DNA from: Bacteroidota bacterium
GTDB lineage: Bacteria; Bacteroidota; Ignavibacteria; UBA10030; UBA8401
DNA length: 44,049 nucleotides
NCBI GenBank assembly: GCA_028873075.1
Contig: JAGWND010000003.1
Location: forward strand, 1 to 44,049
Direction of reading: 5' to 3'
The translations under genes and the position numbers were made by a program. A model generated the notes under the pieces. It was not told where the DNA came from. It searched no databases and saw only the letters and a list, made by a program, of their open reading frames with translations. Positions 26,039 to 42,869 of the stretch are shown piece after piece. How positions within the stretch are numbered: position 1 is the stretch's first letter; each line of letters opens with the position of its first letter.

Positions 26039-26057
26039 TATCGGAGGTGGAAGAAAT

Positions 26058-26945: not shown

Positions 26946-26949
26946 TGTA

Positions 26950-28623: not shown

Positions 28624-28677
28624 CAAGGGTTTCCTTTTTTGAAGATGTGAATATGTACACAACAAAGCATACATACG

Positions 28678-28875
28678 TTACTTTTTCTCAGATTTATTGT
28701 CAAGTTGTTTTGCTTCTTTTTCGACTTCTTCTTGGATGTCCCGCGCTGCTTTACGAAATTCCCGAATTCCCTGCCCAAGCCCTTTTGCTATCTCAGGAAT
28801 TTTCTTCGCGCCGAAGAAGATAATGATGACAAATAATATCAGCAGAAGTTCCGGGAGACCGATATTTTCAAACAT
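28678..28875 (-). CDS. tatA: Twin-arginine translocase TatA/E subunit
   Basis: IG.PELLLI....IFFGAKKIPEIAKGLGQGIREFRKA. Confidence 0.95.
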   Translation of the reverse strand: MFENIGLPELLLILFVIIIFFGAKKIPEIAKGLGQGIREFRKAARDIQEEVEKEAKQLDNKSEKK

Positions 28876-28917
28876 GACAGTTTTCCTTTCTCGTATTTGT
28901 GAAATGCGTTCGTTAAT

Positions 28918-30414
28918 TCAATTTTTTGGGACATCTTCTCTGTTCCACCAGCCGCCGCCAAGCGCAAAGAATAACGCCGCTGTGTCGGCATACCGGTTCG
29001 CTCGCGCCTGCACAAGGCTGATCACCGCGTCTTGATATGTTTGTTCAGCGTTCAACAATGCGAGATAGTTTGTGTATCCCGCTTGCCATTGTTTCCTTGC
29101 TAAGTCGAGGGTCATTTCGGCAGCATTGTTAGCGTCAGCCGACGCCTTCAGCGTCGCGGCATCTTGCTCGAGAGCTTGAAGTACATCGGCAACATTTCGG
29201 AACGCATTGAGAACAGTGCTGCGGTATTGTTCTGCAGCTTGTGTGTATGCCGCTTTCGCCGCACGCTCTTGGTGCAGTAACTTTCCTCCTTCAAAAATCG
29301 GTTGCGTTGCGTTCGCAGCCATGTCCCAGATCCCCGTGCCACCTTTAAATAGAGTGGCAGGATTGAGCGCCATGCTTCCGATATCAGCAGTCAGAGTAAT
29401 AAGCGGCAGCCGGTTGGCTTCAGCAATTCCGATTTGTGCGCTTGCCGCGTGTAAATTTTCTTCCGCTTGCAAAATGTCGGGACGCCGTTCCACTAACTTT
29501 GAGGGAATGCTCTCAGGAAGTTCTTGCGGAAGCTGTAAGCTTGAAAGTGAAAACGTTTCAGACAAATCCTGGTTCGGAAAATTTCCGGACAGCATTGCGA
29601 GAAGATTGCGCTGCTGAGCGAGCTGTTTTTCCAGCGGTGGAAGCGTGGCGGTAATCTGAGCGAGCTGGGATTCCTGCTCGGCAACTTCGAGCCGGCCGAC
29701 ATACCCTTTCTCGAATTGCTTGTGCAGGATTTCAACCATGTCGCTATTGATGGTGATGAGTTGCCGCGTCGCATCAATCTGCGCGCGCAGCGATGCTTCC
29801 TGAATCGCCGCCGCAGCGACATTTGCGCTTACTGTAATGTGTGCTGCGATAAGAGCGAATCGGATTTGTTCTGCCTGCGCTTTGAATAGTTCAGCGGTTC
29901 GACGATATAGACCAAATACATCCGGTACGTACGAGACGCTCACTTGCGGTGTGAAAAGACTGAAATACACATCGCCTGAATTAGGCGTGGGTGAAATTTC
30001 TGACGCTGTTTTCGATCTGCTTGCTGAAAAATTTCCTGCCGCACTTGGATACAATGCACTGCGTTGCGCGAGAAAATTTTCCTGCGCAGCGGTTAAAGCG
30101 GCTTGAGCAGCTTTAAGATCGGGATTGTTTTTCAGCGAAAGCTCTATTAAAGCATTAAGCGGTTTCGATTGGAACAGTGCCCACCATTCTCCGGAAATAT
30201 CACTGTCTTCTATAAAACGTTGAGCACTCCCGCCGGAGAGATTCGCTGTGGAGTCGGTGGTCGAAAGAGGTTTTGTTGTATAGCCAGCAGTGCTGTCCGG
30301 AGGCGAAGGTTTTACAAAATCGGGACCGACAGTGCAGCCGGCGGTAAACAGCAAGAGTGTTGTAATAACCGAAACCCAATCTGATTTTTTCTGAGATAAA
30401 ATCATACAAATCAT
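28918..30414 (-). CDS. RND efflux outer-membrane factor, NodT/TolC-family lipoprotein
   Basis: AGCTVGPDF lipobox, WW..F....LN.LI, RRPDI..AE, LF.ALGGGW. Confidence 0.93.
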   Translation of the reverse strand: MICMILSQKKSDWVSVITTLLLFTAGCTVGPDFVKPSPPDSTAGYTTKPLSTTDSTANLSGGSAQRFIEDSDISGEWWALFQSKPLNALIELSLKNNPDLKAAQAALTAAQENFLAQRSALYPSAAGNFSASRSKTASEISPTPNSGDVYFSLFTPQVSVSYVPDVFGLYRRTAELFKAQAEQIRFALIAAHITVSANVAAAAIQEASLRAQIDATRQLITINSDMVEILHKQFEKGYVGRLEVAEQESQLAQITATLPPLEKQLAQQRNLLAMLSGNFPNQDLSETFSLSSLQLPQELPESIPSKLVERRPDILQAEENLHAASAQIGIAEANRLPLITLTADIGSMALNPATLFKGGTGIWDMAANATQPIFEGGKLLHQERAAKAAYTQAAEQYRSTVLNAFRNVADVLQALEQDAATLKASADANNAAEMTLDLARKQWQAGYTNYLALLNAEQTYQDAVISLVQARANRYADTAALFFALGGGWWNREDVPKN

Positions 30415-30417
30415 TCC

Positions 30418-33400
30418 TTATACACTTTGTTTTATTTCCGCTTTAGTTACTTGATTTTTCTTGCGATCCAGAACAATCATTTTCAATGCGGGCACGACGA
30501 TGAGCAGCATAAGCGGACCAACTAACATACCGCCAACGATGACCGTTGCCAGAGGACGCTGCACTTGACTTCCAATTCCTGTGGAAATTGCCGAAGGCAG
30601 CAAACCAAGGCAAGCAGAGAGGCTTATCATAAGTATCGAGCGCATGCGAGTAGACGCGGCGTAAAACATCGCATTCATCGGTGCATCGCCGCGGAGCCGT
30701 GCGTGGTTGAAATACGTCATCAGTAGAATTCCATTCATAACGGAAACGCCGAAGAGCGAAATAAAGCCGATCGCCGCGGAAATACTGAAATTAAGTCCAG
30801 CAATATAAAGCGCTAATACGCCGCCGGCAATCGCAAACGGAATTCCTGAAAGAACCAACAAACACTCGCGCAATGAATTGAACATCGCGTAGAGAATGCC
30901 GAGAATAATGACAAGCGTAATCGGTACGATAATCGCCAGACGTTTTTGTGCAGCCTGAAGCTGTCCGAATTCTCCAGCCCACACAAGACGATAGCCGCTC
31001 GGGAGCTTCACGTTTTTTGCAATGCGCTCCTGCGCTTCTGCAACAGTGCTTCCAAGATCGCGTCCGCGCACGCTGAACTTTATCGGAATGAAACGCTCGG
31101 TGCTTTCATGATAGATCCATGAGGCTCCGTTATCAAAAGTGATCGTTGCCAATTCGCTCAACGGTATGTAGGCGCTTGCACCGCTTCGTGTTTGGTAGGC
31201 AACTTTGATGTTCGATATTTTCTCAACGTTGTCCCGGTATTCCTGCGGATAGCGGACAGCGACGTCAAACTGGCGGTCGTTCTCGAAAATTGTTGTTGCC
31301 GTCACTCCGCCCACTGCTGCCTGGATGATGGAATTCACGTCTCCGACGTTCAATCCGTAGCGTGCAGCTTTTGCTCTGTCCACCTTGATGTTAAGATTCG
31401 GCTGACCAAGGATCGGAAAAATCCCGAGATCGGCAACTCCCGGCACCTGTGCCATCTCATTGCGAACTTGTTCAGCCAATACTGTCAGCGTTTTTAGATT
31501 TGGTCCGATAATCTTGACAGAATTCGCGCCTTTGACGCCGGAAATCCCTTCCTGAATGTTGTCCTGAATGTATTGCGAAAAAGTAAAATTGACTCCCGGC
31601 AATTCCCGTTGGAAGTCTGCGTTAATTTGCTCAGTCAATTTTTCTTTTGTCATGCCTTTAGGCCACTGACTCAGCGGTTTGAGCGGCGCGAACAATTCAA
31701 CATTTGAAAACGGCGAAGCATCGCTGCCGTCATCGGGTCGTCCGTGCTGAGATGATACGGTGATGACTTCGGGGTATTTCATGAGTATCAGCCGCATTTT
31801 TCTTGCTGCTGCTTCACCATCCTGAAGTGAAAGCGTCATCGGCATGGACGCACGAATCCAAAAATTACCTTCTTCAAGGGCAGGAAGAAATTCACTTCCG
31901 AGGCGAGCTGCTAAAAATCCTGCGAGAGCGATGAAGAGAATTCCGGCGATGAGCATCGCTCTTCGTTTTGCAAGCGCAAACCGCAGTACCGGATTATAGA
32001 GACGGTGCAAAAACCGGACAACGATTGTCTCTGTTTCTTTCACATTCTCTGGAAGAAGAAAGGAAGAAAGAACGGGTGTAGCGGTGAATGTTGCAATCAA
32101 CGCGCCGGCAAGCGCGTACGCATACGTTCGCGCCATCGGTCCGAAGATGGCTCCTTCGACTCCTTGCATCGTGAAGAGCGGAACAAAGGCGGCAACGGTG
32201 ATGAGTGCCGAGAAGAGAACAGGATTGCCGACTTGTATAGCGCTGATCAGGATTTCTTTTAACCGCGTTGTCCAAGTTTGGTGCACTGAAGAGTGCAGCG
32301 CGTTTGTCGGATCGGGTCCCCAAAATCCGTCGGCGAGTTGACGAAGCAAACTTTCCCGTTCCTCCGGCGTTTTCTGAAAATTTCTGAAAATATTTTCGAT
32401 GAGAATAACCGATGCGTCCACAATAATACCGAGGTCAACAGCGCCTACCGAAAGGAGATTGGCGCTTTCGCCTCGTATCACAAGAATGATAACGGCGAAA
32501 AAAAGTGCAAACGGAATAGTCAAGCCGACAATAATTGCGCTTCGGAGATCGCCGAGAAAAATCCATTGAATGAAAAAAATCAGCAGCGTTCCGAAAATCA
32601 GGTTATGCAGAACAGTGCTTGTCGTAACCGATATTAACCAGCCACGATCATAAAACGGAACGAGCTTTACTCCGGGCGGCAGGCTGCCATCATGGTTCAT
32701 TTTGTTAATTTCGGCTTCAACCTTCGGCAGCAAGTCATGTGCACGCTCATCGCGGCTCATCACCACAATTCCCGCGACTCCGTCGTCTTCCTTATCGTGT
32801 CCCCAAATGCCGAGTCTCGGTACATATCCTACAGATACTGCAGCAACATCCTTTACCAGAATCGGAACTCCGTTCGATTGAGTGAGAACAACATTTTCAA
32901 TGTCATCGGTGTGGTAGCCCTGAGTCAAATCATCGTTTCCTCCGTCGTCCATTAATCCGACGCCGCGAATGTTGATGGACTGCTGACCGATTCGAATTTC
33001 CCGTCCACCGACGTTGATGTTCGCGTTATTCAACGCCGTGAGCACTTGAGGCACAGAAAGATTGTAGGCTTGAAGCTTGTGCGGATCAACATCAACCTCG
33101 AATTGTTTTGTCGGACCGCCCCACGAGTTGACTTGAACAATACCGGGAATAGTCAACAGGCGCCGCTTCACGATCCATTCCTGCACCGTCCGAAGATTTT
33201 CCAATCCAAAATGTTTCGGACCGATAACTTCGTAGCGAAGAATTTCTCCGGTTGTGCTGTTCTGTTGGATTGTTGGAACCAAACCTCCCGGCAGATTAAT
33301 ATTTTGCTGTATTGCGACTGCTGTTTGACTGTAAGCAAAATGAAAATCTACGCCGTACTTGAAAACAACCCGAACAAACGACAAACCGTAGAACGATGTT

Positions 33401-33651
33401 GAGCGAATGACATCAATTCCGGGAACAGTGTACAGCCCGATTTCAATCGGTCGCGTGTAGTAACGCTCCATTTCTTCAGCGGAAAGCCCCGGCGCTTGAG
33501 CGGTGACTTCAAGAATAACCGGCGTCGGATTAGGATATGCCTCGATGTTGAGCTGCTGGTATGCGGCGAATCCGGCGCCGAGGAACAGCAGCAAACAGAC
33601 GAGAACGATGGCGCGATGACTTAAACAAAACGCGATGATGGAATTCAGCAT
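30418..33651 (-). CDS. czcA: CzcA/CusA-family heavy-metal RND efflux transporter
   Basis: IEAYP, SANLLSVGAVDLGIIVD, EFLP.LEEG, GFISLFGVSVMNG, GSQVQRPLATVIVGG; 1077 aa. Confidence 0.92.
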   Translation of the reverse strand: MLNSIIAFCLSHRAIVLVCLLLFLGAGFAAYQQLNIEAYPNPTPVILEVTAQAPGLSAEEMERYYTRPIEIGLYTVPGIDVIRSTSFYGLSFVRVVFKYGVDFHFAYSQTAVAIQQNINLPGGLVPTIQQNSTTGEILRYEVIGPKHFGLENLRTVQEWIVKRRLLTIPGIVQVNSWGGPTKQFEVDVDPHKLQAYNLSVPQVLTALNNANINVGGREIRIGQQSINIRGVGLMDDGGNDDLTQGYHTDDIENVVLTQSNGVPILVKDVAAVSVGYVPRLGIWGHDKEDDGVAGIVVMSRDERAHDLLPKVEAEINKMNHDGSLPPGVKLVPFYDRGWLISVTTSTVLHNLIFGTLLIFFIQWIFLGDLRSAIIVGLTIPFALFFAVIILVIRGESANLLSVGAVDLGIIVDASVILIENIFRNFQKTPEERESLLRQLADGFWGPDPTNALHSSVHQTWTTRLKEILISAIQVGNPVLFSALITVAAFVPLFTMQGVEGAIFGPMARTYAYALAGALIATFTATPVLSSFLLPENVKETETIVVRFLHRLYNPVLRFALAKRRAMLIAGILFIALAGFLAARLGSEFLPALEEGNFWIRASMPMTLSLQDGEAAARKMRLILMKYPEVITVSSQHGRPDDGSDASPFSNVELFAPLKPLSQWPKGMTKEKLTEQINADFQRELPGVNFTFSQYIQDNIQEGISGVKGANSVKIIGPNLKTLTVLAEQVRNEMAQVPGVADLGIFPILGQPNLNIKVDRAKAARYGLNVGDVNSIIQAAVGGVTATTIFENDRQFDVAVRYPQEYRDNVEKISNIKVAYQTRSGASAYIPLSELATITFDNGASWIYHESTERFIPIKFSVRGRDLGSTVAEAQERIAKNVKLPSGYRLVWAGEFGQLQAAQKRLAIIVPITLVIILGILYAMFNSLRECLLVLSGIPFAIAGGVLALYIAGLNFSISAAIGFISLFGVSVMNGILLMTYFNHARLRGDAPMNAMFYAASTRMRSILMISLSACLGLLPSAISTGIGSQVQRPLATVIVGGMLVGPLMLLIVVPALKMIVLDRKKNQVTKAEIKQSV

Positions 33652-33665
33652 AATAATTCTCCTCC

Positions 33666-34658
33666 TTAATCTTCCGGCGGAGCTTGCAGCATGTTGCTGA
33701 GAAATACGCCCCCTCTGCTCACCATCTGTTCTCCGGGTCTAAGTCCATCGAGGATTTGGTATTCGTCGTCTCGCTGCAATCCTACTGTCACCTTTCTCTG
33801 GACGAAGCGGCAGCGGTCTGTCGTTACCCAGACGGTTAACGTACCGTCGCCTTCACGCACGATACCCGTAACAGGAATTGTTACAGCTTTTTTCTTGTCG
33901 CCGAAAAAATGTGCTGTTCCGAACATTCCGGCGCGGAGTTTGTTCTCAAGATTCGAAAGAATGATTCGGACTTTCGCGGTTCTCGTTGTTGGATCAATGA
34001 CATCGCCGATGGAGGAGACCTTTCCAATGAAGCGTTCTGCGGGATATGCGTTACACTCAATTTCAACTTTTGAGTTCGTTTTGATATTGGTGAGCTGTCC
34101 TTCTGGGACTTCGGCGGCAACGATCACCGTTCCTGCAGCCGTTTGCTCGAGCACCTTCGGATCAATTCCAGCAGCACGCAACTGGCTTTCTTTCTGTGCC
34201 ATATCTGCCTGCGATTGGTTGTAGTCTGTTTGTGCGTCGAGCAATTCTTTTTCTGCGATGGCTTTGTCTTTTGTCAAATCTTCCAAACGGCGGTAATTTT
34301 TTGACGAGCGCTCGACGGCAGAAACGCTTTTTACAAAATCGGCATACAATTGCGTTAAGTCCGGCGTTTCAAAAAGGTATACGTTGCCGTTTCCGAATTC
34401 GGAGCGCGCGATGCTCACAGCAAAATGCGCCGGAGCCGTAAACTCGGTTTGAATAGTTTCTTCGTGTACCGTATCAATGGTGAATTGTTGAAGCTGAAGC
34501 GAATTCGGTGAGAAAACAATTTCGTTTTCATCGTTCAGCACCTGCGGCGCTGAGATGTTTCGTCCCGAAGCCGCCCGGGCTTCATCTGAGCGATTGCATG
34601 ACTGTAATGCTAATCCATCCAAAATTATCAGCATGGGAATTAAAATTCTCGTGATCAT
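33666..34658 (-). CDS. RND efflux periplasmic adaptor (CzcB-like)
   Basis: AEVPE, IDP.TRT.KVR, LRAGMF, GL.PGE; lipoprotein-like N-terminus; GAGGA SD. Confidence 0.88.
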   Translation of the reverse strand: MITRILIPMLIILDGLALQSCNRSDEARAASGRNISAPQVLNDENEIVFSPNSLQLQQFTIDTVHEETIQTEFTAPAHFAVSIARSEFGNGNVYLFETPDLTQLYADFVKSVSAVERSSKNYRRLEDLTKDKAIAEKELLDAQTDYNQSQADMAQKESQLRAAGIDPKVLEQTAAGTVIVAAEVPEGQLTNIKTNSKVEIECNAYPAERFIGKVSSIGDVIDPTTRTAKVRIILSNLENKLRAGMFGTAHFFGDKKKAVTIPVTGIVREGDGTLTVWVTTDRCRFVQRKVTVGLQRDDEYQILDGLRPGEQMVSRGGVFLSNMLQAPPED

Positions 34659-34876: not shown

Positions 34877-35284
34877 TTAGATGAGAAATTCGCAGTGGAG
34901 CAGGTACAGCGGTAACGCGGAAATATGAGAAATACAATGAACGTTCTGCTCAACAGGGAGGATGCTTATACTCTGATCTACTAGTGCCGGATCTGCTGCA
35001 AGGGAGGGGCTGTCCAAATCTACAATTTGTATTGTGTGCCGGCGTGCAGCGTGCAGCGGAGTGAGAGATAGCTTCAGCTGAATAAGTGATTTTGCATTTT
35101 GAAGCTCCTCGCTGTTTATCGCCGCGTTGCCCGATTCCTCTGAAATGCCGACTTCCTCGGGGTGGCTTACACTGGTTCCCGGCAAAACATCGTCGAGATT
35201 TGCGAAATCAGCGAAGAACGTGGCGATAAAGAACCACGTTACCAGTGTCAACAAATTCGATTTTTTAAAGCAGAGGGTCATCAT
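34877..35284 (-). CDS. Small leader-like membrane/exported protein heading the czcBAC-type operon
   Basis: 135-aa ORF with N-terminal hydrophobic helix, scattered His, and C-terminus HCISHISALPLYLLHCEFLI; strong promoter immediately upstream. Confidence 0.65.
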   Translation of the reverse strand: MMTLCFKKSNLLTLVTWFFIATFFADFANLDDVLPGTSVSHPEEVGISEESGNAAINSEELQNAKSLIQLKLSLTPLHAARRHTIQIVDLDSPSLAADPALVDQSISILPVEQNVHCISHISALPLYLLHCEFLI

Positions 35285-35402: not shown

Positions 35403-36902
35403 CTATTGCACAACAAACATTTTCTTTTCCCTGTCCCACAGTAAACGCGCACGATTTTTTCCCCACCACGTTTGGACTTTTGCAACATCCTTCACAGAAA
35501 ATGAAATTGGAATATGGCTTTGCAGATGATCGTGTGCGTCATCGGCGAAAATTCCGCCGTCCTGAATAAGGCGAATCATCGCCGGAATTGCGTCGGCATC
35601 TCCCAGCTCAAGTGCGGTTTCCAAAAACTGGATTTGCATCTCGGGGTCGTCCTCCGACTTCGACGCCTCGACAAGTTTTTTCGCGGAAACACCGTCGCCG
35701 AATGTCTTCACTGCAACAAGCACGCTTTGTTGAACGTCGTCTGATTTGTCGTTGAGAAGCGGAACGATCTGAGCTTCCGCTGAAGCGACGCGCGATTTCG
35801 TTAACAGGTCCACTGCGGCTTTACGCACTTCGGAATCTTCATCGTGAAGAGCTTTTGTAACAAGCGGAATCCATTCTTGTTGCTGTGCGGGAAACGAAGC
35901 AAGCATGTGAATACCCGATTGTCTTTCTGTGCTCGCTTGACTCTGAAGCAAATGCAATGCGTGTTCGAGAGGATCTTCTGCAGGTTTGCGGAAGAAAAAA
36001 ACACCCGCAATAAAAATTGCAACGACAGCAGCAGCCGACGCGAGATTTCTAACTGCAATAGAAACACGCTCCGCCGTTTTGATGTAGCGGTACATTCCGC
36101 TTATCAGTAAACCGGCTGCGAGCAAAACAACAACCAAGGGGCTTGTCGGAAGTCCGGTGTTCCACGAAAGCTTCACGCCGATGAAGCTGATGATCGCACT
36201 TCCGATCCAGCCGATTGCGAGCCGCGTGCTGAGTTTATCGGAAAGCATCATTGCTCCGACGGACGGAATGACGAGGTAGCTGAAGACGAGAAACACCCCC
36301 GCAATTGCCACTGAACTTGTGATGACGAATCCGAACGACATATAAAAGAGAAAATCCCATAAGCGGACATTGATGCCGCCCGCTTCCGCTCTTGCAGGAT
36401 CGAACGAGATTGCCATGAACTTTTTCCGGAAGATGAAATGGAACAACCCGACAATCGAATAAATGATTGCTGTTTTGATAACGACGTGGCCCTGTACCCA
36501 GAGCAGATCGCCTTTAATGATGTGATCGAGTTCCTGCGGACCGAGCGCGCTTTTTGAAAGGATCAGAATTGTTGCCGCGAACGTTACGGCATAGACAATG
36601 CCAATGATCGCTTCGTGCGGTACTTTTTCGCTCTTCATGCGTGTGGCGGAAAAGATGAACGCGCCGAAAATCGTGAATGCAAGCGAGTAAAGATACAATG
36701 CTGTAATATCCGTGCCAACTTCGTAACCGAGCAGCACGCCGATGACTGTTCCTAATGCGGCAATTTGCGCCAACGCAAGATCAACGAAAATGACTTTTCG
36801 TGCGACAACGTGAACACCTAAATAGACATGAATGCCGGTGAGCACGAGGCACGCCAGCAGCGGCCAGATCATTGTTGAGGGCAAATAGAAAAGTTGTTCC
36901 AT
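35403..36902 (-). CDS. ZnuB/MntB-type metal ABC permease fused to C-terminal HEAT-like repeats
   Basis: FVDLALAQIAALG, EAIIGIVY, SFDPARAEAGG, AGVFLVFSYLVIP; then LHDEDSEVRKAAVDLL and LLNDKSDDVQQ. Confidence 0.88.
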   Translation of the reverse strand: MEQLFYLPSTMIWPLLACLVLTGIHVYLGVHVVARKVIFVDLALAQIAALGTVIGVLLGYEVGTDITALYLYSLAFTIFGAFIFSATRMKSEKVPHEAIIGIVYAVTFAATILILSKSALGPQELDHIIKGDLLWVQGHVVIKTAIIYSIVGLFHFIFRKKFMAISFDPARAEAGGINVRLWDFLFYMSFGFVITSSVAIAGVFLVFSYLVIPSVGAMMLSDKLSTRLAIGWIGSAIISFIGVKLSWNTGLPTSPLVVVLLAAGLLISGMYRYIKTAERVSIAVRNLASAAAVVAIFIAGVFFFRKPAEDPLEHALHLLQSQASTERQSGIHMLASFPAQQQEWIPLVTKALHDEDSEVRKAAVDLLTKSRVASAEAQIVPLLNDKSDDVQQSVLVAVKTFGDGVSAKKLVEASKSEDDPEMQIQFLETALELGDADAIPAMIRLIQDGGIFADDAHDHLQSHIPISFSVKDVAKVQTWWGKNRARLLWDREKKMFVVQ

Positions 36903-36922
36903 AAAGTTTCCTTCGAGTGATC

Positions 36923-37292
36923 GTCATTTTGAGGTACTTATCCACGCCTTTGGCGTGGAAACTTCTTCTGCAATGACATTCGTTGTCATTCGTAGTCGTG
37001 GTTCGACTTCGCTCACCACGACAGCCGCCCTGAGCGAAGTCGAAGGGCGGAAAAAACCTCTTTCTTCTCGATGTCATTAGTAGGAGCGAAGCGACGAAGA
37101 ATCCAGCTTTTTGCCTCAAGGTAAAGTATGGATTCTTCGCTCCGCTGCTTATGACATTGGAGTCGTTCTGGGTCCCGCTGTTTTTTCGCTGATGCTCAGC
37201 ATGACAAACTCGGCCTAATTCGAAAGGCTGATCGGATGTCAATGCATGCGAAGATTCTTGACAAAGTCGAGATACATACCTCAGAATGACAA
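36923..37292. repeat. Cluster of REP-like palindromes (GTCAT...ATGAC and TTCGACTTCGCTCA types)
   Basis: TCCACGCC-TTT-GGCGTGGA (36941..36959); TTCGACTTCGCTCA (37002..37015) with TGAGCGAAGTCGAA (37031..37044); ATGTCAT..CGAAGAATCC..GGATTCTTCG..ATGACAT (37071..37157); half copies CTCAGCATGAC and CTCAGAATGAC. Confidence 0.8.
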
Positions 37293-37314
37293 ATCAGAAG
37301 ATTCTTGTTTTCTG

Positions 37315-38346
37315 TTACGATGCTGCTTTCAATATTTTTTCAAGCAAATAGGTGATGAGGTTTTCGTACGTGTTCGCCTCCGGACTGGAATACACATCAA
37401 TGTACGTCACGATTACTTTTGCTCCGGTTTTACTCGCAACATAGTCCGCCGCATCGGTGGAATAAAAATTATCGTTTAAAATGACTTTCACGCCGTCTCG
37501 TTTTACAAGGTCAACAACTTCGTCACGATGCTTCGCTGGCGGCGGAATGCCCGGCTTTTCTTCAAGCTCCCCGGCAATTTTTACTCCGAAGCGGTCGGCG
37601 AAATAGATGTACGTTTTGTGATAGGAAATGATTTCCTTCCCTTGCAGCGGCTCTGCCATTTTCATCCATCCGCCTAACTTTGCATCGAGATGCCGCGAAG
37701 CAAGCCACGAATACAGCTCGCCGTCTTTTGTTTTGCGGGTGAGAATATCGCCCCCTTTTTTGCCGAGCAGGTCGAGCAATTCGCTGCCGTACATTTTTTC
37801 GTCGAGACGGTGCTTGAAGGCATCGAGTCGTTGCTGGTAATAGCCCGAATTTGTCGGGTCAATTTGTTGAAGCCGTGCAGCAATATTTTCTGCTACGATT
37901 CTCACGTTCAGCGGATCGAGCCAGATGTGTGGATTGCCCTGCGGATGGATATCGCCCCACGCGCGCGAAACTTCTGTCGGCAATTCTCTTACCGGCACAT
38001 TGATCGTCGCGATGAGATGTCCGGGATTTCCGACTCCGATATTCGGATTACCCGATGCGTCAATAACATTTTTTGCCCAGAGGTCGAGCGACAATCCGTT
38101 TTCGATGAACAAATCGGCGTTTGTTGTTACTTCATTCATGCGCGGCGTCGGCGTAACATAGTGCGGGTCCTGTTTTGGATTGGCAAGAGCCGTGACCGTT
38201 ACTTTATCCCCGCCGACCTGTTCCGTCACGTATTTGAGATAATTCAGCGTGACAACAACGTTTAATTTTTTTTGTGCCGCCGCTGAAACATGCGCTATTG
38301 AAAACGCCAGAAATACGGCAAGTAGTGCTGCGAAAAGTTTTTTCAT
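37315..38346 (-). CDS. ZnuA/TroA-family (cluster A-I) metal-binding protein
   Basis: Signal peptide; QDPHY, NGL.LD.W, GDIHPQGNPHIWLDP, YHK...YFA.RFG, EEKPGIPP...H. Confidence 0.92.
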   Translation of the reverse strand: MKKLFAALLAVFLAFSIAHVSAAAQKKLNVVVTLNYLKYVTEQVGGDKVTVTALANPKQDPHYVTPTPRMNEVTTNADLFIENGLSLDLWAKNVIDASGNPNIGVGNPGHLIATINVPVRELPTEVSRAWGDIHPQGNPHIWLDPLNVRIVAENIAARLQQIDPTNSGYYQQRLDAFKHRLDEKMYGSELLDLLGKKGGDILTRKTKDGELYSWLASRHLDAKLGGWMKMAEPLQGKEIISYHKTYIYFADRFGVKIAGELEEKPGIPPPAKHRDEVVDLVKRDGVKVILNDNFYSTDAADYVASKTGAKVIVTYIDVYSSPEANTYENLITYLLEKILKAAS

Positions 38347-38400
38347 GATATTCTCCAAATTCTCAAGTTTTCCATTGACCATTTTTCGTCTTTCATGTTT

Positions 38401-39756
38401 TTATTTGTTCACCCAATATGGCTCTACCGGATGAGAGCCGAAGACGAAGTTTGCTCCAAAAAGTATTGAATTGGTGTTGTTCAGATTCGGCGCCAACGCA
38501 TCGCTCGTTCTGTGCTCGAAGCCGAGCCGGAAGCGGAGAAATTCCGTTGTGTAATAACTGACGAAAACAGAAATTTCCCGCGTCACTAATTGAGCATTTG
38601 ACGGTTCTTGTACCCAATCGTAACGAAGCCCCGCATACGTCCAGTATGAAAATTGATACTGAGCAAAGGTGTACCAACCGTACGGCTTGCGTGTTACCGT
38701 TCCTCCGGCAGGATTTGGTGTTGTATGATCGCCGAAGAAAATTTCTCCGCCGCCGACAAACGAATGATTTTCTCTTTGCTCGCTTGGCGCCCACTTATAC
38801 ATGAGGTTGCCTCCGACGAGATTCGTTGTTGTGATGCCGCTTTCGGTATAGCCGCTGACGCCGAGAACGAGCAGGTGCTCGTTGTTCCAATCCTGCGACA
38901 AGGTTAAATGCCCGAGATACGCGGTCTGTCCTCCCGGGTCGCCTGCGGATATTCCAAGCTCACTGCCGCGAAGAACGTCGGCGTTCATCTCGAATGTCGC
39001 AGAAGGAACCGGCGACGGGAGGAAGAATTGAAAATCGGCACCGACCGGATTGAAACCGGAATCAAAAAAGTTGCCGTGTTCTCCCCCTAGGTATTTTGAA
39101 ATCACAAGCGGGTATGTTGTCCACGGCAAATCGTGCAGGTGCGTGATGTTGCTGATGCCGATGGGAGCGAGATAGCGCCCGATTTTCACTTTCAACCCGA
39201 GCGGCGCGGTTTCGAGAATCGGCAGGCGTTTGATGAGGCCGTACGCTTCTTCCGCTTCAACACTGAACCCTTGCTGTGCATCGCTGTTGAGTGAAATGAT
39301 CGCGACGGCTTCAGCGTAGGGATCGACCGCAGAGCCTAATTCCATTTCTACCGCGCGGAGAAACGGGCGGTTGGAAATAACACTGCCGCCCGGCGCATCG
39401 TACACTGTGTCGTTGTCATGCCGCGCGGCAAAATTGATGAATGCCGTCATGCGCGGATTCAGAACGATCGGTGCCGATGCGCGAGACACGGCATCAACCT
39501 TGTTTTCCAGCCTCTGCATTCGTTGATCAATATTGTCTTCAAGCGCATCAAGGTCGTCTTCCGTTACCTGAGTCAACGATGTAGTTGTGCTGTCTGTTTT
39601 CAGGCTTTGAATCTCTTTGCGCAGTTCGTTAACCTCGTTTCGCAGCCGTTGAATGCTTGTCTCGCTGGTATCAGCCTGAGAATCCTTTGCGGATTGTTGT
39701 GCCATTATTGTGCCTGCGCATACAAACATTCCAACGGCAATCAAAAAATATTTCAT
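38401..39756 (-). CDS. Outer-membrane porin-like protein with N-terminal coiled coil, associated with metal uptake
   Basis: Signal peptide, coiled coil, E......VDPY, EEAY, N..HLHD.P, G.RYD, TEFLRFRL, FVFGSHP; heads the SBP-permease genes. Confidence 0.75.
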   Translation of the reverse strand: MKYFLIAVGMFVCAGTIMAQQSAKDSQADTSETSIQRLRNEVNELRKEIQSLKTDSTTTSLTQVTEDDLDALEDNIDQRMQRLENKVDAVSRASAPIVLNPRMTAFINFAARHDNDTVYDAPGGSVISNRPFLRAVEMELGSAVDPYAEAVAIISLNSDAQQGFSVEAEEAYGLIKRLPILETAPLGLKVKIGRYLAPIGISNITHLHDLPWTTYPLVISKYLGGEHGNFFDSGFNPVGADFQFFLPSPVPSATFEMNADVLRGSELGISAGDPGGQTAYLGHLTLSQDWNNEHLLVLGVSGYTESGITTTNLVGGNLMYKWAPSEQRENHSFVGGGEIFFGDHTTPNPAGGTVTRKPYGWYTFAQYQFSYWTYAGLRYDWVQEPSNAQLVTREISVFVSYYTTEFLRFRLGFEHRTSDALAPNLNNTNSILFGANFVFGSHPVEPYWVNK

Positions 39757-39786
39757 GATTGCCCTCTGAGTAGTTGAACGATTTGT

Positions 39787-39814
39787 CGGTGATCCCGCTA
39801 TTAACAGGACACCG
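39787..39814 (-). promoter_or_regulatory. Stem-loop between the RGPP leader and the porin gene
   Basis: Minus strand CGGTGTCCTGTT-AAT-AGCGGGATCACCG: 12 pairs including two G-U and one bulge; no U-tract. Confidence 0.55.
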
Positions 39815-39828
39815 TTGAGGAAAATAGA

Positions 39829-40188
39829 TTAGGCAGTCACGAAAGGAGGGCCGCGATGGAAATACGGCGATAAAACTTCAAAGGAAACTGCAGGAACAAA
39901 AGTGATATAGGGAAGGTAAAATGCTTTCTCTTCAGGCTGAACTGTGAACACGGCCGTCGGCATGAATGCTCTGCCGAAAATCCCTGAGCATACGGCACAT
40001 GTTTCGGTATGCGAGAGGTCAATATGGTGACAATGAGCAGCATCCGCGTGTGTTGAGACAGTCTCATATCCCGTGCCTATAACAAATATTGCTTCATAGT
40101 CGCGGTGAATGGGCACAAGAATAACCATACCCACGACGTAAAACGCGAGCACCCACGACGAAAGCTTTTTATTGATACGGGAAATCAT
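39829..40188 (-). CDS. DUF2946/CruR-like leader protein (TM, His cluster, CxxC, C-terminal RGPP)
   Basis: 119 aa from MISRINKK; hydrophobic helix ending in H; THADAAHCHHIDLSHTETCAVC; ends YFHRGPPFVTA; 72 bp upstream of the porin ATG. Confidence 0.8.
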   Translation of the reverse strand: MISRINKKLSSWVLAFYVVGMVILVPIHRDYEAIFVIGTGYETVSTHADAAHCHHIDLSHTETCAVCSGIFGRAFMPTAVFTVQPEEKAFYLPYITFVPAVSFEVLSPYFHRGPPFVTA

Positions 40189-40307
40189 TGATGCATAAAA
40201 GATACAACATTCTAAACCAAATACAAGGAAAAAGGTTCCGCTTTGCGACATGATTTTTTATTGCACGAAGAAACCTTCAAAGTAAAAAGAAGGTTATATC
40301 ATCAGGC

Positions 40308-40730
40308 ATGAATGTTATTGCTAAATACTTCGGTGTCGGGCTGGCGGTTGTGCTGTTATCAGCAAACGGATTTTTTACAGCCTTCGCTCCGGACTTGCGC
40401 CATCACAACAGTGTAAAGAAGGCTTCAATGCAGATGTGCAGTTGCTATTCCGGCGATGAGGCAATGACGTGTTCATGCTGTTGCGCGAAGCATCGCTCAC
40501 ATACTGCAGCGTGCACTTCGTGTGAATTTTCTTCTGCGCCATGCGCAAATCCTATTGCCGCCGTTTCACCGAATGTTCTTGATCCTGCAGTTCAAACGCA
40601 ATCGAAAGAGCAAGACATTCTGCTTGGTACGAGATCGGAAAAATTTCCGGTGCTCGCTATATTGCTTCTTTCACGGACACAAGACCCGCTTTTCCATCCC
40701 CCGCAATCCTTTTCACACATCTTTTCATAA
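40308..40730 (+). CDS. Cys-rich leader-like protein with C-terminal FHPP, upstream of a TonB-dependent receptor
   Basis: N-terminal hydrophobic segment; 9 Cys in CSC...CSCCC...CTSC...C; ends DPLFHPPQSFSHIFS. Confidence 0.75.
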   Translation: MNVIAKYFGVGLAVVLLSANGFFTAFAPDLRHHNSVKKASMQMCSCYSGDEAMTCSCCCAKHRSHTAACTSCEFSSAPCANPIAAVSPNVLDPAVQTQSKEQDILLGTRSEKFPVLAILLLSRTQDPLFHPPQSFSHIFS

Positions 40731-40759
40731 TACAACTGCTCAACAAAAAATCTGAAGGC

Positions 40760-40792
40760 AATGTCTGACAGCGGTTGTTACTGTCTGACATT
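40760..40792 (+). promoter_or_regulatory. Hairpin or tandem TGTCTGACA palindromes between the leader and the TonB-dependent receptor
   Basis: AATGTC-T-GACAG-CGGTTGTTA-CTGTC-T-GACATT; TGTCTGACA at 40762 and 40782. Confidence 0.55.
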
Positions 40793-40898
40793 CAGCGAAA
40801 ATGAAATAAAGATATCAGCGGCTCGAAAACGCCGTCAGGTATCATTACGTTGAGCAATGATAAATTTTTCTTTGCGGTACTTAACGAAAGAAATCTCT

Positions 40899-42869
40899 AT
40901 GCGTTGGTATGTTATCAGTGCGCTGGTGTGTTTCCTTTTTTCAACGGCGTGGTCGGAAGATTCGCCGCCGGATACATCAGCCAAAGTTGTTCAGCTCCCA
41001 GAGGTAACGATTACTTCCGCTCCTGTCGCTCGCGAATTGCCGGTGAGTTCGGTAGTCGTTTCTCCGGTGGCGATTCAAAGAACCGTTGCGACAGATTCGT
41101 GGGATCTTCTTCGTCAAACTACGGGAATTGAAGTTCATGAACAGGGACAAGGACCCGGCTTCGCATCGGATGCATCCATCCGCGGCTTCAGCTCTGATCA
41201 CTCGACCGACCTCGCGCTTTGGATTGACGGAGTGCCGGTGAACGAGCCGATTAACGGACACGCGGAAGGATACAATGATTTCAGCCTTCTGATGCCGGAA
41301 GCGATCCACTCGCTCAATCTCATCAAAGGACCGACCAGCGCGCTGTACGGCAATTTTTCTATGGCAGGCGTGGTAAATGTTCGGACGCTTGAACGCATGG
41401 ACGGAACGGACATTCGTGTTTCCGGCGGCACGTTCGGCAAGCTGGAAGGATCTGCATTGAGCGGTTTTGATAACGGTAGCAGCAGCGGAGTATTCGGCAT
41501 TCGCGGCATTCAGAATCAGGGTTGGCGGCCGAACAGCCAGTACGATCTTGAACAAGCACATGCTCGGTATTTGCAGAATGTATTTTCCGATGCAACGATT
41601 GATGCCGGGGTGGAATTGTACTCTGCCAATTGGCATTCTCCCGGCTCGCTTACTGCGGCACAGTTCGCTCAACGCCAGTATAATGTTGTCGCGAACTCAA
41701 CTGACGGCGGATACAAACGCCGCGCACAGGAACGAGTGAGTTTGAGATTTTCTCCCGACTCCATCATGTTCTGGCGGACGACTATTTTTGCTACACAGGG
41801 GCGCTGGCAGCTTTTTCTCACAACGCCGCCGGAAGGTGGATTGACAGAAGGCTCCGGAAATCAAACGGAAGAAGAGGACAAGCGTTACGGTCTTGGCGGA
41901 ACAAGCGCGTTGACATGGCAGTTTCCGCAGAGTGAAATTACTGTCGGTGTAGAAGGAAAGCTCGATCATTCGAATTACGAGAACTGGTTTACAACCAATC
42001 GGGAAAGAGATTCAGCGCAGATACTCGTTTCGGCACGGCAGAGTGCCGGAGCGTTCTTTTTTCAATCGGAAGAAAATGTCGGCGATGCAAAGTTCACTCT
42101 CGGCGGACGTTATGATATTCTCAGTGTAGAATCTGTACCGGAAGGTGGCGGAACGTTGAATAATGCCAAGGGAATTTTTTCTCCGAAGCTCGGCGTAATG
42201 TATTCCTTTCCCGAAAACTTTTCCGTCTATGCAAACATCTCGCGCGGATTTCGCTCAACAGATGGTACAATAGAAGATCCATCGCTGCCGTTCATCACCG
42301 CATGGGCATACGAGACAGGAACAAAATTCGATGCAGATGTTGCCAGCGGCAGTGTTGCGCTCTTTCGGATGAATGTGAGCAACGAACAGACATTCGACCC
42401 TGTTACGCTCACTTCAACAAACGGGGGAAAAAGCCGCAGGCAAGGAGTGGAAGTGTCGGCGATGATTCGCTTTACAAATCAGGTTCGTTTCATCACTGAT
42501 GTAACGTTCAACGATGCACGTTATGAAAATTTAATTACGGAAGGTGGGGACACGCTTTCCGGTGCACGCGTGTACAACACGGCAAAATGTGTCGGCGATG
42601 CCGCGCTCGACGTTGTTCCGAACGCTCAGTGGCAGTTCCGTCTCAATTCGGATATTGTCGGTCCCTATAGTCCGTTTGATGAACCGGGAGTAGTGTTGCC
42701 GCCGTACGTTATTTTTTCGATGACAATCGGTACACATATCGGCGATGCATTTCTTCAGTTGGGAATCAAGAATCTTGCGGACAAAGCGTACCCCGAATTG
42801 CGTGCAGGCGGATTTGTCAATCCCGGTCAACCGCGCACGTTGTACGGAACAGCGTCGTATTCGTTTTAG
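40899..42869 (+). CDS. TonB-dependent outer-membrane receptor
   Basis: Signal peptide; TonB-box-like LPEVTIT; plug motifs IRGF, IDGVPVN, IKGP.SALYG...AGVVN; C-terminal NL.DK.Y...PG.PRT....SYSF. Confidence 0.95.
   Translation: MRWYVISALVCFLFSTAWSEDSPPDTSAKVVQLPEVTITSAPVARELPVSSVVVSPVAIQRTVATDSWDLLRQTTGIEVHEQGQGPGFASDASIRGFSSDHSTDLALWIDGVPVNEPINGHAEGYNDFSLLMPEAIHSLNLIKGPTSALYGNFSMAGVVNVRTLERMDGTDIRVSGGTFGKLEGSALSGFDNGSSSGVFGIRGIQNQGWRPNSQYDLEQAHARYLQNVFSDATIDAGVELYSANWHSPGSLTAAQFAQRQYNVVANSTDGGYKRRAQERVSLRFSPDSIMFWRTTIFATQGRWQLFLTTPPEGGLTEGSGNQTEEEDKRYGLGGTSALTWQFPQSEITVGVEGKLDHSNYENWFTTNRERDSAQILVSARQSAGAFFFQSEENVGDAKFTLGGRYDILSVESVPEGGGTLNNAKGIFSPKLGVMYSFPENFSVYANISRGFRSTDGTIEDPSLPFITAWAYETGTKFDADVASGSVALFRMNVSNEQTFDPVTLTSTNGGKSRRQGVEVSAMIRFTNQVRFITDVTFNDARYENLITEGGDTLSGARVYNTAKCVGDAALDVVPNAQWQFRLNSDIVGPYSPFDEPGVVLPPYVIFSMTIGTHIGDAFLQLGIKNLADKAYPELRAGGFVNPGQPRTLYGTASYSF

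What the first reader, a model, noticed from the sequence alone, without database searches (positions are those of the whole stretch)
39749..40188. RGPP leader peptide whose final codons can sequester the porin SD and start codon
Seen: a 119-aa ORF with TM segment, His cluster, CAVC and terminal RGPP (39855..39844). Its mRNA UAUUUCCAU-CGCG-GCCCUC (codons Y-F-H-R-G-P, 39864..39846) is complementary to GAGGGC-AAUC-AUGAAAUA (39766..39749): 6 bp over the SD plus 8 bp over the AUG with one bulge. A separate hairpin (39787..39814) shortens the loop. Known: RAPP/RGPP motifs cause ribosome arrest (ApdA/ApdP type), and Bordetella CruR (DUF2946; CxxC + RAPP) is a copper-responsive upstream ORF for a TonB-dependent receptor. 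Inference: without metal, the ribosome stalls on RGPP, covers the anti-SD and turns uptake on; metal binding to the exported His/Cys domain releases the stall and turns it off. The target here is a ZnuA-type system, so the signal may be Zn/Mn/Co rather than Cu.
Basis: partly seen in the sequence, partly recalled or inferred. Interest (0 to 1): 0.9.

Follow-up and report, generated by a model that had tools for sequence, protein, structure and literature searches.

The report
Metal-sensing arrest leader of uptake operon
A small exported-protein gene ending in the ribosome-stalling motif RGPP sits in front of a porin and ZnuA-type metal-import operon and most likely acts as a built-in metal switch of a kind described since 2022, here attached to a cargo not discussed in those papers.

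Summary
The sequence facts are right. A 119-aa ORF (40188..39829, minus strand) has an N-terminal hydrophobic anchor, a His/Cys block, CAVC and RGPP at 39855..39844. RGPP is not terminal: FVTA and TAA follow it. By its hallmarks the ORF is a CruR/CutF-type (DUF2946-like) leader. The CxxC-to-RGPP spacing is 44 residues, and 43-46 in all 59 scored homologues. Pfam scores it just below threshold.

It heads a porin-like gene, a ZnuA-type binding protein and an ABC-3 permease. This order recurs in 18 of 28 relatives' loci and in about 36 metagenome loci.

The SD/AUG pairs instead with the codons just after RGPP (39844..39831, 0.52) or with the porin's own early codons (0.21). Both upstream arms lie under or next to an arrested ribosome.

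Codon tests on 58 loci support selection for SD complementarity (17 of 58 at p<=0.05, decoys 1 of 58; CCU at the first Pro codon in 28 of 58, 9.9 expected). A C>G tract over the arrest site equally fits the Rho mechanism shown for CruR.

Verdict: a real regulatory leader, a new variant of a known kind. The RNA output and the metal are unresolved.

The parts
39829..40188 (-). Leader ORF, 119 aa plus stop (CruR/CutF-like, DUF2946-like)
   Evidence: ORF listing. The start at 40188 is supported by alignment with 27 homologues. Pfam DUF2946 E 4.1e-4, 21.5 bits against a cut-off of 23.7.
40108..40164 (-). N-terminal hydrophobic segment (L9-I27) after R4, K7 and K8: a putative signal anchor
   Evidence: Read from the translation. 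It is the only confident part of the AF2 model (helix 2-35, pLDDT 75-96). No signal-peptide predictor was run.
39988..40050 (-). Putative metal site: H47-A-D-A-A-H-C53-H-H55 ... C64-A-V-C67
   Evidence: H55, C64 and C67 are invariant and H47 is 90% or more conserved among 28 sequences.
39856..39987 (-). 44-residue spacer, conserved in length but not in sequence
   Evidence: Spacing is 43-45 in 28 of 28 loci and 43, 44 or 46 in 31 of 31 metagenome loci that keep CxxC. There are no invariant columns between C67 and R112.
39844..39855 (-). RGPP arrest motif (CGC GGC CCU CCU)
   Evidence: Read. R112, P114 and P115 are invariant. RGPP occurs 0 times in 838,889 aa of long ORFs of the genome, about 6 expected.
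39829..39843 (-). Tail FVTA plus TAA
   Evidence: Tails of 2-10 residues in 28 relatives, with a mode of 4.
39831..39844 (-). Predicted anti-SD/anti-start arm (UUUCGUGAcUGCCU), pairing with 39764..39751
   Evidence: MFE folds. 13 pairs listed. Ensemble fraction 0.52 in 39880..39730. Pairing probability 0.53-0.65 in 4 of 7 windows and 0.00-0.10 in 3 of 7.
39846..39864 (-).
   Evidence: 14 Watson-Crick pairs are possible, but the ensemble fraction is 3.7e-7. There is one compensatory change in the same-genus locus L003: GGC/GAGGGC becomes GGU/GAGGAC.
39835..39861 (-). mRNA assumed covered by a ribosome arrested with the Pro114 codon in the P site (-12..+14)
   Evidence: Inference from the arrest position toeprinted for CruR (PMC12992588, passage) and a standard footprint. 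Used as a folding constraint.
39787..39814 (-). Intergenic hairpin
   Evidence: -14.8 kcal/mol. Kept in L003 with a U.G to C-G change (read). Not followed by a U run, and no terminator-like site was reported in the spacer.
39751..39766 (-). Porin SD (GAGG 39766..39763), spacer, and ATG 39756..39754 with the first codons
39736..39763 (-). Competing local hairpin, GGCAAUCA with UGAUUGCC (porin codons 5-7)
   Evidence: 8 Watson-Crick pairs. Ensemble fraction 0.21. It dominates in 3 of 7 windows.
39767..39922 (-). C-rich, G-poor tract over the end of the leader and the spacer (rut-like)
   Evidence: C minus G is +0.10 to +0.18 in 78-nt windows here, and -0.08 to +0.09 elsewhere in 40260..39611. 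The family mean peaks at +0.19 around the arrest site in 58 loci.
38401..39756 (-). Porin-like outer-membrane protein, 451 aa (N-terminal coiled coil plus beta strands)
   Evidence: No Pfam or NCBIfam family over threshold. AF2 mean pLDDT 58.3, with strands at 238-437. The top Foldseek hits are porins, TM 0.30-0.47.
37315..38382 (-). ZnuA-family substrate-binding protein
   Evidence: PF01297 E 5e-51. Closest NCBIfam model is AztC, 105 bits, below cut-off. The His in 'isyHktyiY' aligns with the Glu in 'vtsEgafsY' of YfeA.
35403..36902 (-). ABC-3 permease fused to C-terminal HEAT repeats
   Evidence: PF00950 E 2.6e-34 and HEAT_2 E 8.7e-18.

Best explanation
The 119-aa ORF is a cis-acting, metal-sensing regulatory leader of the CruR/CutF (DUF2946-like) kind. 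It heads an uptake operon of a porin-like protein, a ZnuA-type binding protein and an ABC-3 permease.

Shown from sequence:
- An N-terminal anchor, a conserved His/Cys site and a 44-residue spacer of fixed length.
- An invariant R-x-P-P four codons before the stop.
- First place in the operon.

Inferred mechanism:
- When the metal is scarce, the ribosome arrests with the two Pro codons in its P and A sites.
- The arrested ribosome covers about 39861..39835. That pyrimidine tract (GGC CCU CCU UUC GUG ACU GCC) contains every upstream partner predicted for the porin SD and start codon.
- The ribosome-binding site is therefore kept out of the long-range helix, the porin is translated, and the transcript is protected.
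- When the nascent His/Cys site binds metal, the arrest is released and the ribosome terminates at TAA.
- The 39844..39831 arm then re-pairs with 39764..39751 around the 39814..39787 hairpin and porin initiation drops. Rho acting on the C>G tract probably then reduces the distal ZnuA and permease genes.
For: Family features:
- CxxC, R[AG]PP and 43-45 spacing in 28 of 28 loci from relatives, and 43-46 in 31 of 31 metagenome loci.
- Invariant H28, H55, C64, C67, R112, P114 and P115.
- DUF2946 matched by 18 of 28 members at E<=0.01.
- The product is predicted to be unstructured beyond the anchor, as reported for CruR.

Operon:
- A porin homologue lies downstream in 18 of 28 loci, with ZnuA seen after it in 10 of 28; the loci reach only about 1.5 kb.
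- 34 of 56 metagenome porin loci with 450 nt or more upstream carry such an ORF; 2 of the 34 were judged spurious.

RNA:
- The own-locus MFE pairs the SD/AUG with 39844..39831 (-36.8 kcal/mol, z -3.2, 0 of 200 shuffles as good).
- The ensemble fraction of that helix is 0.52.

Codon tests on 58 non-identical loci:
- The first Pro codon is CCU in 28 and the second in 23, against 9.9 expected from each locus's own usage. 0 and 1 of 100,000 simulations reach these counts.
- The real codons pair with the SD/start better than 95% of synonymous recodings in 17 of 58 loci, against 1 of 58 for each of two decoy targets.
- The signal persists with the Pro codons held fixed, in 14 of 58.
- The SD region pairs with the footprint zone at a mean of 0.21, against 0.036 for a control zone 40 nt upstream; it is higher in 45 of 57 loci.

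Published precedent:
- CruR arrests at RAPP with the Pro codons in the P and A sites (PMC12992588, passage).
- RGPP gave the most stable arrest among the RAPP-like motifs tested there (same call).
Against: - No experiment bears on this locus.
- The window's protein is below Pfam's gathering score (21.1-21.5 against 23.7).
- The predicted SD partner depends on the stretch folded: the 39844..39831 arm has probability 0.00-0.10 in 3 of 7 windows.
- Blocking the footprint does not reliably free the SD in this locus. SD-core pairing falls in 6 of 9 windows and rises in 3 of 9. It rose from 0.66 to 0.83 in the family-wide run. The reason is the local hairpin with the porin's own codons.
- Across the family, blocking lowers SD pairing by more than 0.1 in only 14 of 57 loci.
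- The arm is a generic anti-SD mimic: 7.9% of 1418 gene starts pair with it as well.
- The control zone lies farther from the SD, so distance alone favours the footprint zone.
- The loci are related, so the p-values overstate.
- The CCU preference could reflect a tRNA or decoding requirement of the arrest itself.
- The C>G tract and the presence of rho fit the CruR mechanism without any SD masking.
Confidence: 0.55

Rival explanations
1. The leader and its arrest logic are the same, but the output is Rho-dependent termination, as shown for Bordetella CruR. The arrested ribosome blocks Rho loading or translocation on the C-rich tract at the end of the leader. Release of the arrest lets Rho terminate before or within the porin gene. 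The SD complementarity would be a by-product of a pyrimidine-rich rut site.
For: - This is the mechanism demonstrated for the family's type member (abstract and discussion of PMC9426467).
- C minus G is +0.10 to +0.18 over 39922..39767. The family mean peaks at +0.19 for windows starting 60 to 20 nt before the R codon and falls to about 0 downstream.
- A rho gene is present (123 bits).
- Blocking the footprint does not consistently open the SD in the folding model.
Against: - The spacer is 72 nt here and mostly 51-116 nt in the family, against 162 bp in B. pertussis.
- Synonymous-codon choice is tuned to the SD/start target and not to the decoys (17 of 58 against 1 of 58). A rut site alone need not produce that, although C-rich codons would.
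- The two mechanisms are not exclusive.
Confidence: 0.25
2. CutF-type polarity: metal binding prolongs the arrest rather than relieving it, so the operon is switched on by metal excess.
For: This was shown for R. capsulatus CutF, a member of the same broad family (abstracts of PMC9973294 and of the preprint 10.1101/2025.02.05.636593). The window is a metal-homeostasis island with RND and CDF efflux genes.
Against: - The regulated genes are import parts (a ZnuA-family binding protein, an ABC-3 permease and a porin). Induction by excess metal would be harmful.
- Paralogous leaders in relatives head TonB-dependent receptor genes: 6 of 7 non-porin neighbours scanned, as for CruR, which is switched off by copper.
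Confidence: 0.07
3. The ORF encodes a working membrane-anchored periplasmic metal-binding protein, a chaperone for the porin/ZnuA pathway. Its RGPP is a tolerated or slow-translating motif with no regulatory role.
For: The His/Cys site is conserved. Co-operonic small metallochaperones exist, and CutF was first conjectured to be a chaperone (discussion of PMC9426467).
Against: - There are no conserved residues in the 44-residue stretch between CxxC and RGPP, yet its length is fixed.
- The AF2 pLDDT is 51-60 for residues 31-119.
- RGPP is otherwise absent from 838,889 aa of long ORFs, yet it is invariant here.
- The codon-level bias lies at and after the motif.
Confidence: 0.05
4. One reading: 39864..39856 pairs with 39756..39749 and 39851..39846 pairs with 39766..39761, and this is the functional off-state helix.
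For: - 14 Watson-Crick pairs.
- The structure with the hairpin scores -25.9 kcal/mol, against -15.9 for the hairpin alone.
- There is one compensatory change in the same-genus locus L003: GGC to GGU with GAGGGC to GAGGAC.
Against: - Ensemble fraction 3.7e-7, and probability at most 0.02 in 7 of 7 windows.
- In L003 the part over the AUG loses two pairs (UAU to UUU and CAU to CAC, read).
- The Gly/Ala wobble base pairs with the base next to GGAGG in only 7 of 13 testable loci.
Confidence: 0.03

Closest known systems
CruR (Bp2923) of Bordetella pertussis, DUF2946 upstream ORF (PMC9426467)
   Same: - Small first gene of a metal-uptake operon.
- N-terminal export signal and CxxC.
- R-A/G-P-P 3-4 residues before the stop.
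- About 45-residue spacer conserved in length (44 here).
- Product predicted to be poorly structured.
- Expected logic: arrest means ON, metal means OFF.
   Different: - RGPP instead of RAPP.
- An extra HxDxxxCxH block 10 residues before CxxC.
- Below Pfam's DUF2946 threshold.
- Host is an Ignavibacteria-like Bacteroidota rather than a proteobacterium.
- Cargo is a porin plus a ZnuA-type ABC importer, not a TonB-dependent receptor plus PepSY_TM.
- Spacer is 72 nt rather than 162 bp.
- The RNA output may be SD masking rather than, or as well as, Rho termination.
CutF of Rhodobacter capsulatus and 'CutF-like' proteins (PMC9973294; preprint 10.1101/2025.02.05.636593)
   Same: - It meets all four published filters: under 150 aa, PP within the last 15 residues, an N-terminal signal, and a same-strand neighbour within 1000 nt.
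- The SD of the next gene is predicted to be shielded by RNA structure that a stalled ribosome would melt.
   Different: - CutF uses CxxxC and a PPP tract.
- Its anti-SD lies in an intergenic stem-loop, not in the leader's own last codons.
- Copper increases its stalling and switches on a detoxifying oxidase, so the polarity and the cargo are opposite.
SecM-secA and MifM-yidC2 (arrest peptides that unmask a downstream SD); details recalled
   Same: An arrest near the end of an exported leader, with the arrested ribosome disrupting a helix that hides the next gene's SD. Release is by a force on the nascent chain.
   Different: Those leaders monitor the export machinery itself. Here the proposed release signal is metal binding, and the cargo is a metal importer.
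ApdA/ApdP RAPP arrest peptides and the RGPP/RAPP small-protein survey (PMC7897499 seen only in a search listing; PMC10951233 abstract; PMC12992588 passages)
   Same: An R-A/G-P-P core close to the C terminus of a small secreted protein. The survey lists TonB-dependent receptors and metal-homeostasis genes among the enriched downstream genes.
   Different: It is not upstream of sec or yidC genes. The survey's main text does not contain 'porin', 'ZnuA' or 'zinc', and it says the Cu-related class was not found in Bacteroidota.

Membership tests
DUF2946 / CruR family | Match to Pfam PF11162 above the gathering score | tested here: not met
   21.1 bits (140-aa form) and 21.5 bits (119-aa form) against a cut-off of 23.7; E 4-6e-4; the match covers profile positions 44-117 of 117. 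18 of 28 relatives match at E<=0.01, best 2.5e-6. This is a near miss, so I file it as DUF2946-like.
DUF2946 / CruR family | Conserved CxxC motif | tested here: met
   CAVC at residues 64-67. Both Cys are invariant in 28 sequences.
DUF2946 / CruR family | R-A-P-P-type motif about 3 residues before the C terminus | tested here: met
   RGPP at residues 112-115, followed by 4 residues. R[AG]PP with a tail of 2-10 residues in 28 of 28 loci. The published feature is quoted.
DUF2946 / CruR family | Spacing between CxxC and RAPP conserved at about 45 residues, within 1-2 | tested here: met
   44 here. Counts are 44 (17 loci), 43 (9) and 45 (2), and 43 (10), 44 (19) and 46 (2).
DUF2946 / CruR family | N-terminal export signal (signal peptide or N-in/C-out transmembrane segment) | tested here: inconclusive
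   R4, K7 and K8 followed by 19 hydrophobic residues. The AF2 helix 2-35 is confident. No dedicated predictor was available.
DUF2946 / CruR family | First gene of an operon for metal homeostasis | tested here: met
   Porin-like gene, ZnuA and ABC-3 permease lie downstream on the same strand. The order is conserved.
DUF2946 / CruR family | Ribosome arrest at the motif and metal-dependent control of downstream genes | not testable with these tools
   No RNA run holds the locus. This needs toeprinting and reporter assays.
CutF-like proteins (filters of PMC9973294) | Under 150 aa; PP within the last 15 residues; N-terminal signal; same-strand downstream gene within 1000 nt | tested here: met
   119 aa; PP at 5-6 residues from the end; hydrophobic N terminus; 72-nt spacer. 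The filters are quoted.
CutF-like proteins (filters of PMC9973294) | RNA structure that shields the downstream SD | tested here: inconclusive
   The SD/AUG is paired in the MFE, but the partner varies with the window folded and the effect of a stalled ribosome is inconsistent.
Sec/YidC-monitoring RAPP arrest peptides (ApdA/ApdP) | Encoded upstream of a protein-localisation gene (secDF, yidC and the like) | tested here: not met
   The downstream genes are a porin-like protein and ZnuA-type transporter parts. It shares only the arrest core.

The most novel reading that the evidence does not exclude
A subfamily of CruR-like leaders in Ignavibacteria-like Bacteroidota senses a metal other than copper, most plausibly zinc. 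It controls a dedicated outer-membrane porin plus a ZnuA-type ABC importer. In this subfamily the arrest-site codons themselves (CCU CCU and the pyrimidine-rich tail) are dual-coded as the anti-SD. The ribosome would then unmask the next gene's ribosome-binding site simply by sitting on its own arrest codons. This would be a riboswitch-free, protein-based post-transcriptional sensor for a metal for which no riboswitch had been described, according to the discussion of PMC9426467.
Probability: 0.3. Interest if true: 0.65.

Novelty: new variant of a known kind. Interest (0 to 1): 0.5.

Why it matters
Nascent-chain metal sensors (CruR in 2022, CutF in 2023, the RGPP/RAPP survey in 2025) are a young class, and only two members have been studied at the bench.

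This locus and about 60 related ones extend the class in three ways:
- to a distant lineage;
- to a cargo that the main texts of those papers do not mention, namely a Pfam-less porin followed by a ZnuA-type importer;
- to a testable twist, in which codon choice at and after the arrest motif is biased toward complementarity with the next gene's Shine-Dalgarno sequence.

If the metal is zinc, it would show that the ruler-and-arrest design is a general periplasmic or cytoplasmic metal sensor rather than a copper speciality. For annotation, it flags that small 'hypothetical' ORFs ending in R-G/A-P-P before transporter genes should be called regulatory leaders.

Tried and rejected

2. Covariation of the Gly/Ala wobble base with the base beside GGAGG. 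Only 13 of 58 loci carry an exact complement of the Pro-Pro 5-mer, and 7 of those 13 pair. This is no signal.

3. Thermodynamic on/off simulation with a 27-nt footprint constraint. The results depend on the window folded and are mostly small. I do not count them for the model.

4. Known RNA families: 0 Rfam matches at E<=1 in 39500..40900.

5. Intrinsic terminator in the spacer: none. The only two terminator-like sites lie inside the leader at 40127..40157, and the count is no more than in shuffles.

6. Expression data: no RNA holder is listed for 39400..40300. The one full DNA holder (X1, labelled mine drainage metagenome) may be the source of the window.

7. Porin fold: the AF2 model is of low confidence (mean pLDDT 58.3). 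Foldseek hits to porins have TM of only 0.30-0.47. This is taken as consistent with a beta-barrel and no more.

8. Other RGPP-type leaders in the genome. Five ORFs of 260 aa or less end in R[AGSD]PP plus up to 12 residues. Only the one in this window has CxxC; the other four look like chance frames.

9. Specificity of the arm for its own SD. The cognate mean is -14.0 kcal/mol against -11.2 for non-cognate pairs. Cognate targets rank first to fifth of 28 for only 13 arms, so the arm-SD match is mostly generic.

10. Complex prediction, the search of protein representatives, the protein-atlas search, search_dna_similar and the listing of cluster members were not used. Supplementary tables of PMC9973294, PMC9426467 and PMC12992588 were closed. 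They may already list porin or ZnuA neighbours or these very proteins, which would lower the novelty.


Full report
WHAT IS THERE

On the minus strand an ORF runs from ATG 40188 (an alternative ATG lies at 40251) to TAA 39831..39829. Twenty-seven homologues from related genomes start at the position of 40188, so the product is 119 aa. It reads as follows:
- A basic N terminus and a 19-residue hydrophobic stretch (L9-I27).
- H47-A-D-A-A-H-C-H-H55.
- C64-A-V-C67.
- A 44-residue stretch.
- R112-G-P-P115 at 39855..39844.
- F-V-T-A and the stop.

Seventy-two nucleotides downstream a 451-aa gene starts at 39756, with GAGG at -10. After it come a ZnuA-family binding protein (PF01297, E 5e-51) and an ABC-3 permease fused to HEAT repeats.

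The organism has the usual 16S tail ...CACCUCCUUUCU. SD cores peak at -15..-8 before its genes; 28.9% of 1418 crude starts carry one, against 9.2% in a background window. Calling GAGG an SD is therefore reasonable. Named relatives of the porin gene are Bacteroidota and Ignavibacteriales MAGs.

FAMILY

Pfam places the ORF just under the DUF2946 threshold (21.1-21.5 bits against 23.7). Eighteen of 28 homologues match at E<=0.01.

[quoted passage not shown] These are met here:
- In 28 of the 29 places found in 24 of 61 related genomes, the ORF has CxxC and R[AG]PP followed by 2-10 residues.
- The spacing is 43, 44 or 45 in all 28.
- A scan of metagenome contigs with the porin alignment gave 80 loci. 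Of the 56 with 450 nt or more upstream, 34 have such an ORF just before the porin, two of them judged spurious. In the 31 that keep CxxC the spacing is 43, 44 or 46.
- In the alignment only M1, H28, H55, C64, C67, R112, P114 and P115 are invariant. Nothing between C67 and R112 is conserved except the length.
- AF2 is confident only for the N-terminal helix. CruR is likewise described as poorly structured.
- RGPP is absent from 838,889 residues of long ORFs in this genome, where about 6 are expected. This is the only small ORF in the genome that combines CxxC with such an ending.

I conclude that this is a CruR/CutF-type regulatory leader. It also passes the four 'CutF-like' filters of PMC9973294.

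CARGO

- The gene order leader, porin-like gene, ZnuA is conserved. A porin homologue follows the leader in 18 of 28 relatives' loci. ZnuA is visible after it in 10; the loci end about 1.5 kb downstream.
- In the other loci the leader precedes TonB-dependent receptor genes. Six of 7 scanned have CarboxypepD_reg domains and 5 of the 7 also match Plug (3 of them below Pfam's cut-off). This is CruR's own context.
- The porin label is only moderately supported. There is no Pfam family. All named hits of the 120 listed (657 hits in all) are 'hypothetical', apart from one source label of another family. The AF2 model is of low confidence, with an N-terminal coiled coil and strands from 238 to 437. 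The best Foldseek hits are porins at TM 0.30-0.47.
- The ZnuA-like protein has His where the Mn/Fe-type YfeA has Glu. From recalled knowledge of cluster A-I binding proteins, this points to the Zn-type His-His-His site. It is a lead, not a test.
- The main texts of PMC9973294 and PMC12992588 contain none of 'porin', 'ZnuA' or 'zinc'. Their supplements were closed.

THE RNA

It is predicted to be essentially unpopulated, for two reasons. Its 5' arm is taken by a local GCCGU/GCGGC hairpin, and the SD has better partners. Its probability is at most 0.02 in 7 of 7 windows, and its ensemble fraction is 3.7e-7.

The MFE of 39875..39735 (-36.8 kcal/mol, z -3.2) pairs 39844..39831 (UUUCGUGAcUGCCU, that is the last base of the second Pro codon, F-V-T-A and the first base of the stop codon) with 39764..39751, around the hairpin 39814..39787. 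This helix holds 0.52 of the ensemble of 39880..39730. A local hairpin of the SD's 3' half and the A of the ATG with porin codons 5-7 holds 0.21 and wins in 3 of 7 windows.

Both upstream arms lie in or next to the roughly 27 nt that a ribosome arrested with Pro114 in the P site would cover. The arrest position is the one toeprinted for CruR (PMC12992588, passage).

The simple constraint model, however, does not show a clean switch. In this locus SD-core pairing falls in 6 of 9 windows and rises in 3. Across the family it falls by more than 0.1 in 14 of 57 loci.

IS THE COMPLEMENTARITY SELECTED?

Against specificity:
- CCUCCUUUC at 39849..39841 is a literal copy of the 16S anti-SD.
- 7.9% of the genome's gene starts pair with the arm as well as the porin's does.

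For selection, in 58 non-identical loci:
- The first and second Pro codons are CCU in 28 and 23 cases, against 9.9 expected from each locus's own usage.
- The real codons of the last 11-19 codons pair with the SD/start better than 95% of synonymous recodings in 17 of 58 loci. The own locus has p 0.02; about 3 loci are expected by chance. For decoy targets inside the porin gene or just after the stop the figure is 1 of 58 each.
- The signal remains when the Pro codons are held fixed, in 14 of 58.
It does not decide between the registers.

The loci are related, so all of these p-values overstate.

THE RIVAL OUTPUT

For CruR the demonstrated output is Rho-dependent termination, with a rut site in a C>G region of the leader. 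The same signature is present here:
- C minus G is +0.10 to +0.18 over 39922..39767, and near zero elsewhere.
- The family mean peaks at +0.19 for windows that span the arrest site.
- The genome has a rho gene.

Pyrimidine-rich codons serve both readings, so I cannot separate them by computation, and they may act together.

DIRECTION, SENSING AND NOVELTY

Because the cargo is an importer, the CruR polarity (arrest gives ON, metal releases the arrest and gives OFF) is far more sensible than the CutF polarity.

The CruR authors proposed the cytoplasm, after finding the signal peptide dispensable.

The class itself is in print: CruR in 2022, CutF in 2023 and 2025, and a 2025 survey that found RGPP/RAPP small secreted proteins enriched upstream of TonB receptors and metal genes. 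What is new here is the lineage-specific subfamily, the porin plus ZnuA-type cargo, and the codon-level evidence that the arrest codons double as an anti-SD.

I rate it a new variant of a known kind, with interest 0.5. My confidence is about 0.85 that it is an arrest-type metal-sensing leader and about 0.45 that SD masking is a main output. For the combined best explanation I give 0.55.

Noticed in passing
window 40308..40730 (+), then 40857..42869 (+): A second, divergently transcribed leader-type ORF of 140 aa. It has a signal peptide, a Cys-rich block (CSC...CSCCC...C..C), SAPC, SPNVLDP and the ending FHPPQ plus 7 residues. It lies 126 nt before a TonB-dependent receptor gene. It has no Pfam or NCBIfam hit. 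Homologues occur in 9 of 61 related genomes, and all end (F/L)HPPQ plus 3-7 residues. It may be a second, undescribed arrest or sensor motif, and it fits the CutF-like filters.
   Followed up: partly
window 40272..40295: A perfect 7-bp inverted repeat, AACCTTC-N10-GAAGGTT, lies in the short region between the two divergent leader ORFs. It is a candidate operator for a transcription factor acting on both operons. It is not evident upstream of the leader in L003.
   Followed up: no
window 36903..37314 and 35403..36902: There is a 412-nt gap between the ZnuA-type gene and the permease, holding only an odd-looking 153-aa ORF (36781..37242). No ABC ATPase gene was seen in the operon. The permease carries C-terminal HEAT repeats. 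The ZnuA-like protein has an insert of about 50 residues (about 195-245) relative to YfeA.
   Followed up: no
window 23408..34658: The leader sits in a metal-homeostasis island. It holds a DtxR/MntR-type repressor with a FeoA domain (23408..24061), NRAMP (24067..25452), Usp, a CDF exporter with ZT_dimer (25953..26945), and an RND set of OEP, ACR_tran and HlyD_D23 (28918..34658). A 135-aa ORF (34877..35284) with a hydrophobic N terminus, a His/Cys-containing end and no family hit lies 218 nt before the HlyD gene.
   Followed up: no
metagenome loci L036, L037, L064, L062, L050, L083, L085, L086: Variant endings occur before porin homologues: RSPP (L036, L037, L064), RDPP (L062) and KRGHP (L050). 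In GC-rich loci there is a different leader with HEHC and the ending Y-x-T-A-P-K-T-S-P-P-A-stop (L083, L085, L086). RSPP and RDPP are reported as partially permissive for arrest in PMC12992588 (passage).
   Followed up: partly
L027 (relative's locus), just after the leader: The TonB-receptor gene after this leader is interrupted in its signal peptide (MRSILI then a stop) and continues in another frame. This is a frameshift or an assembly error.
   Followed up: no
window 39922..39767: A C-rich, G-poor tract is centred on the arrest site. The same feature is seen on average in 58 homologous loci. It resembles the rut region mapped in cruR.
   Followed up: partly
window 40189..40205: There is no SD-like purine run before the leader's own ATG 40188 (upstream sequence ...tatcttttatgcatca). 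This suggests weak or SD-independent initiation; CruR is reported to be translated at low levels.
   Followed up: no
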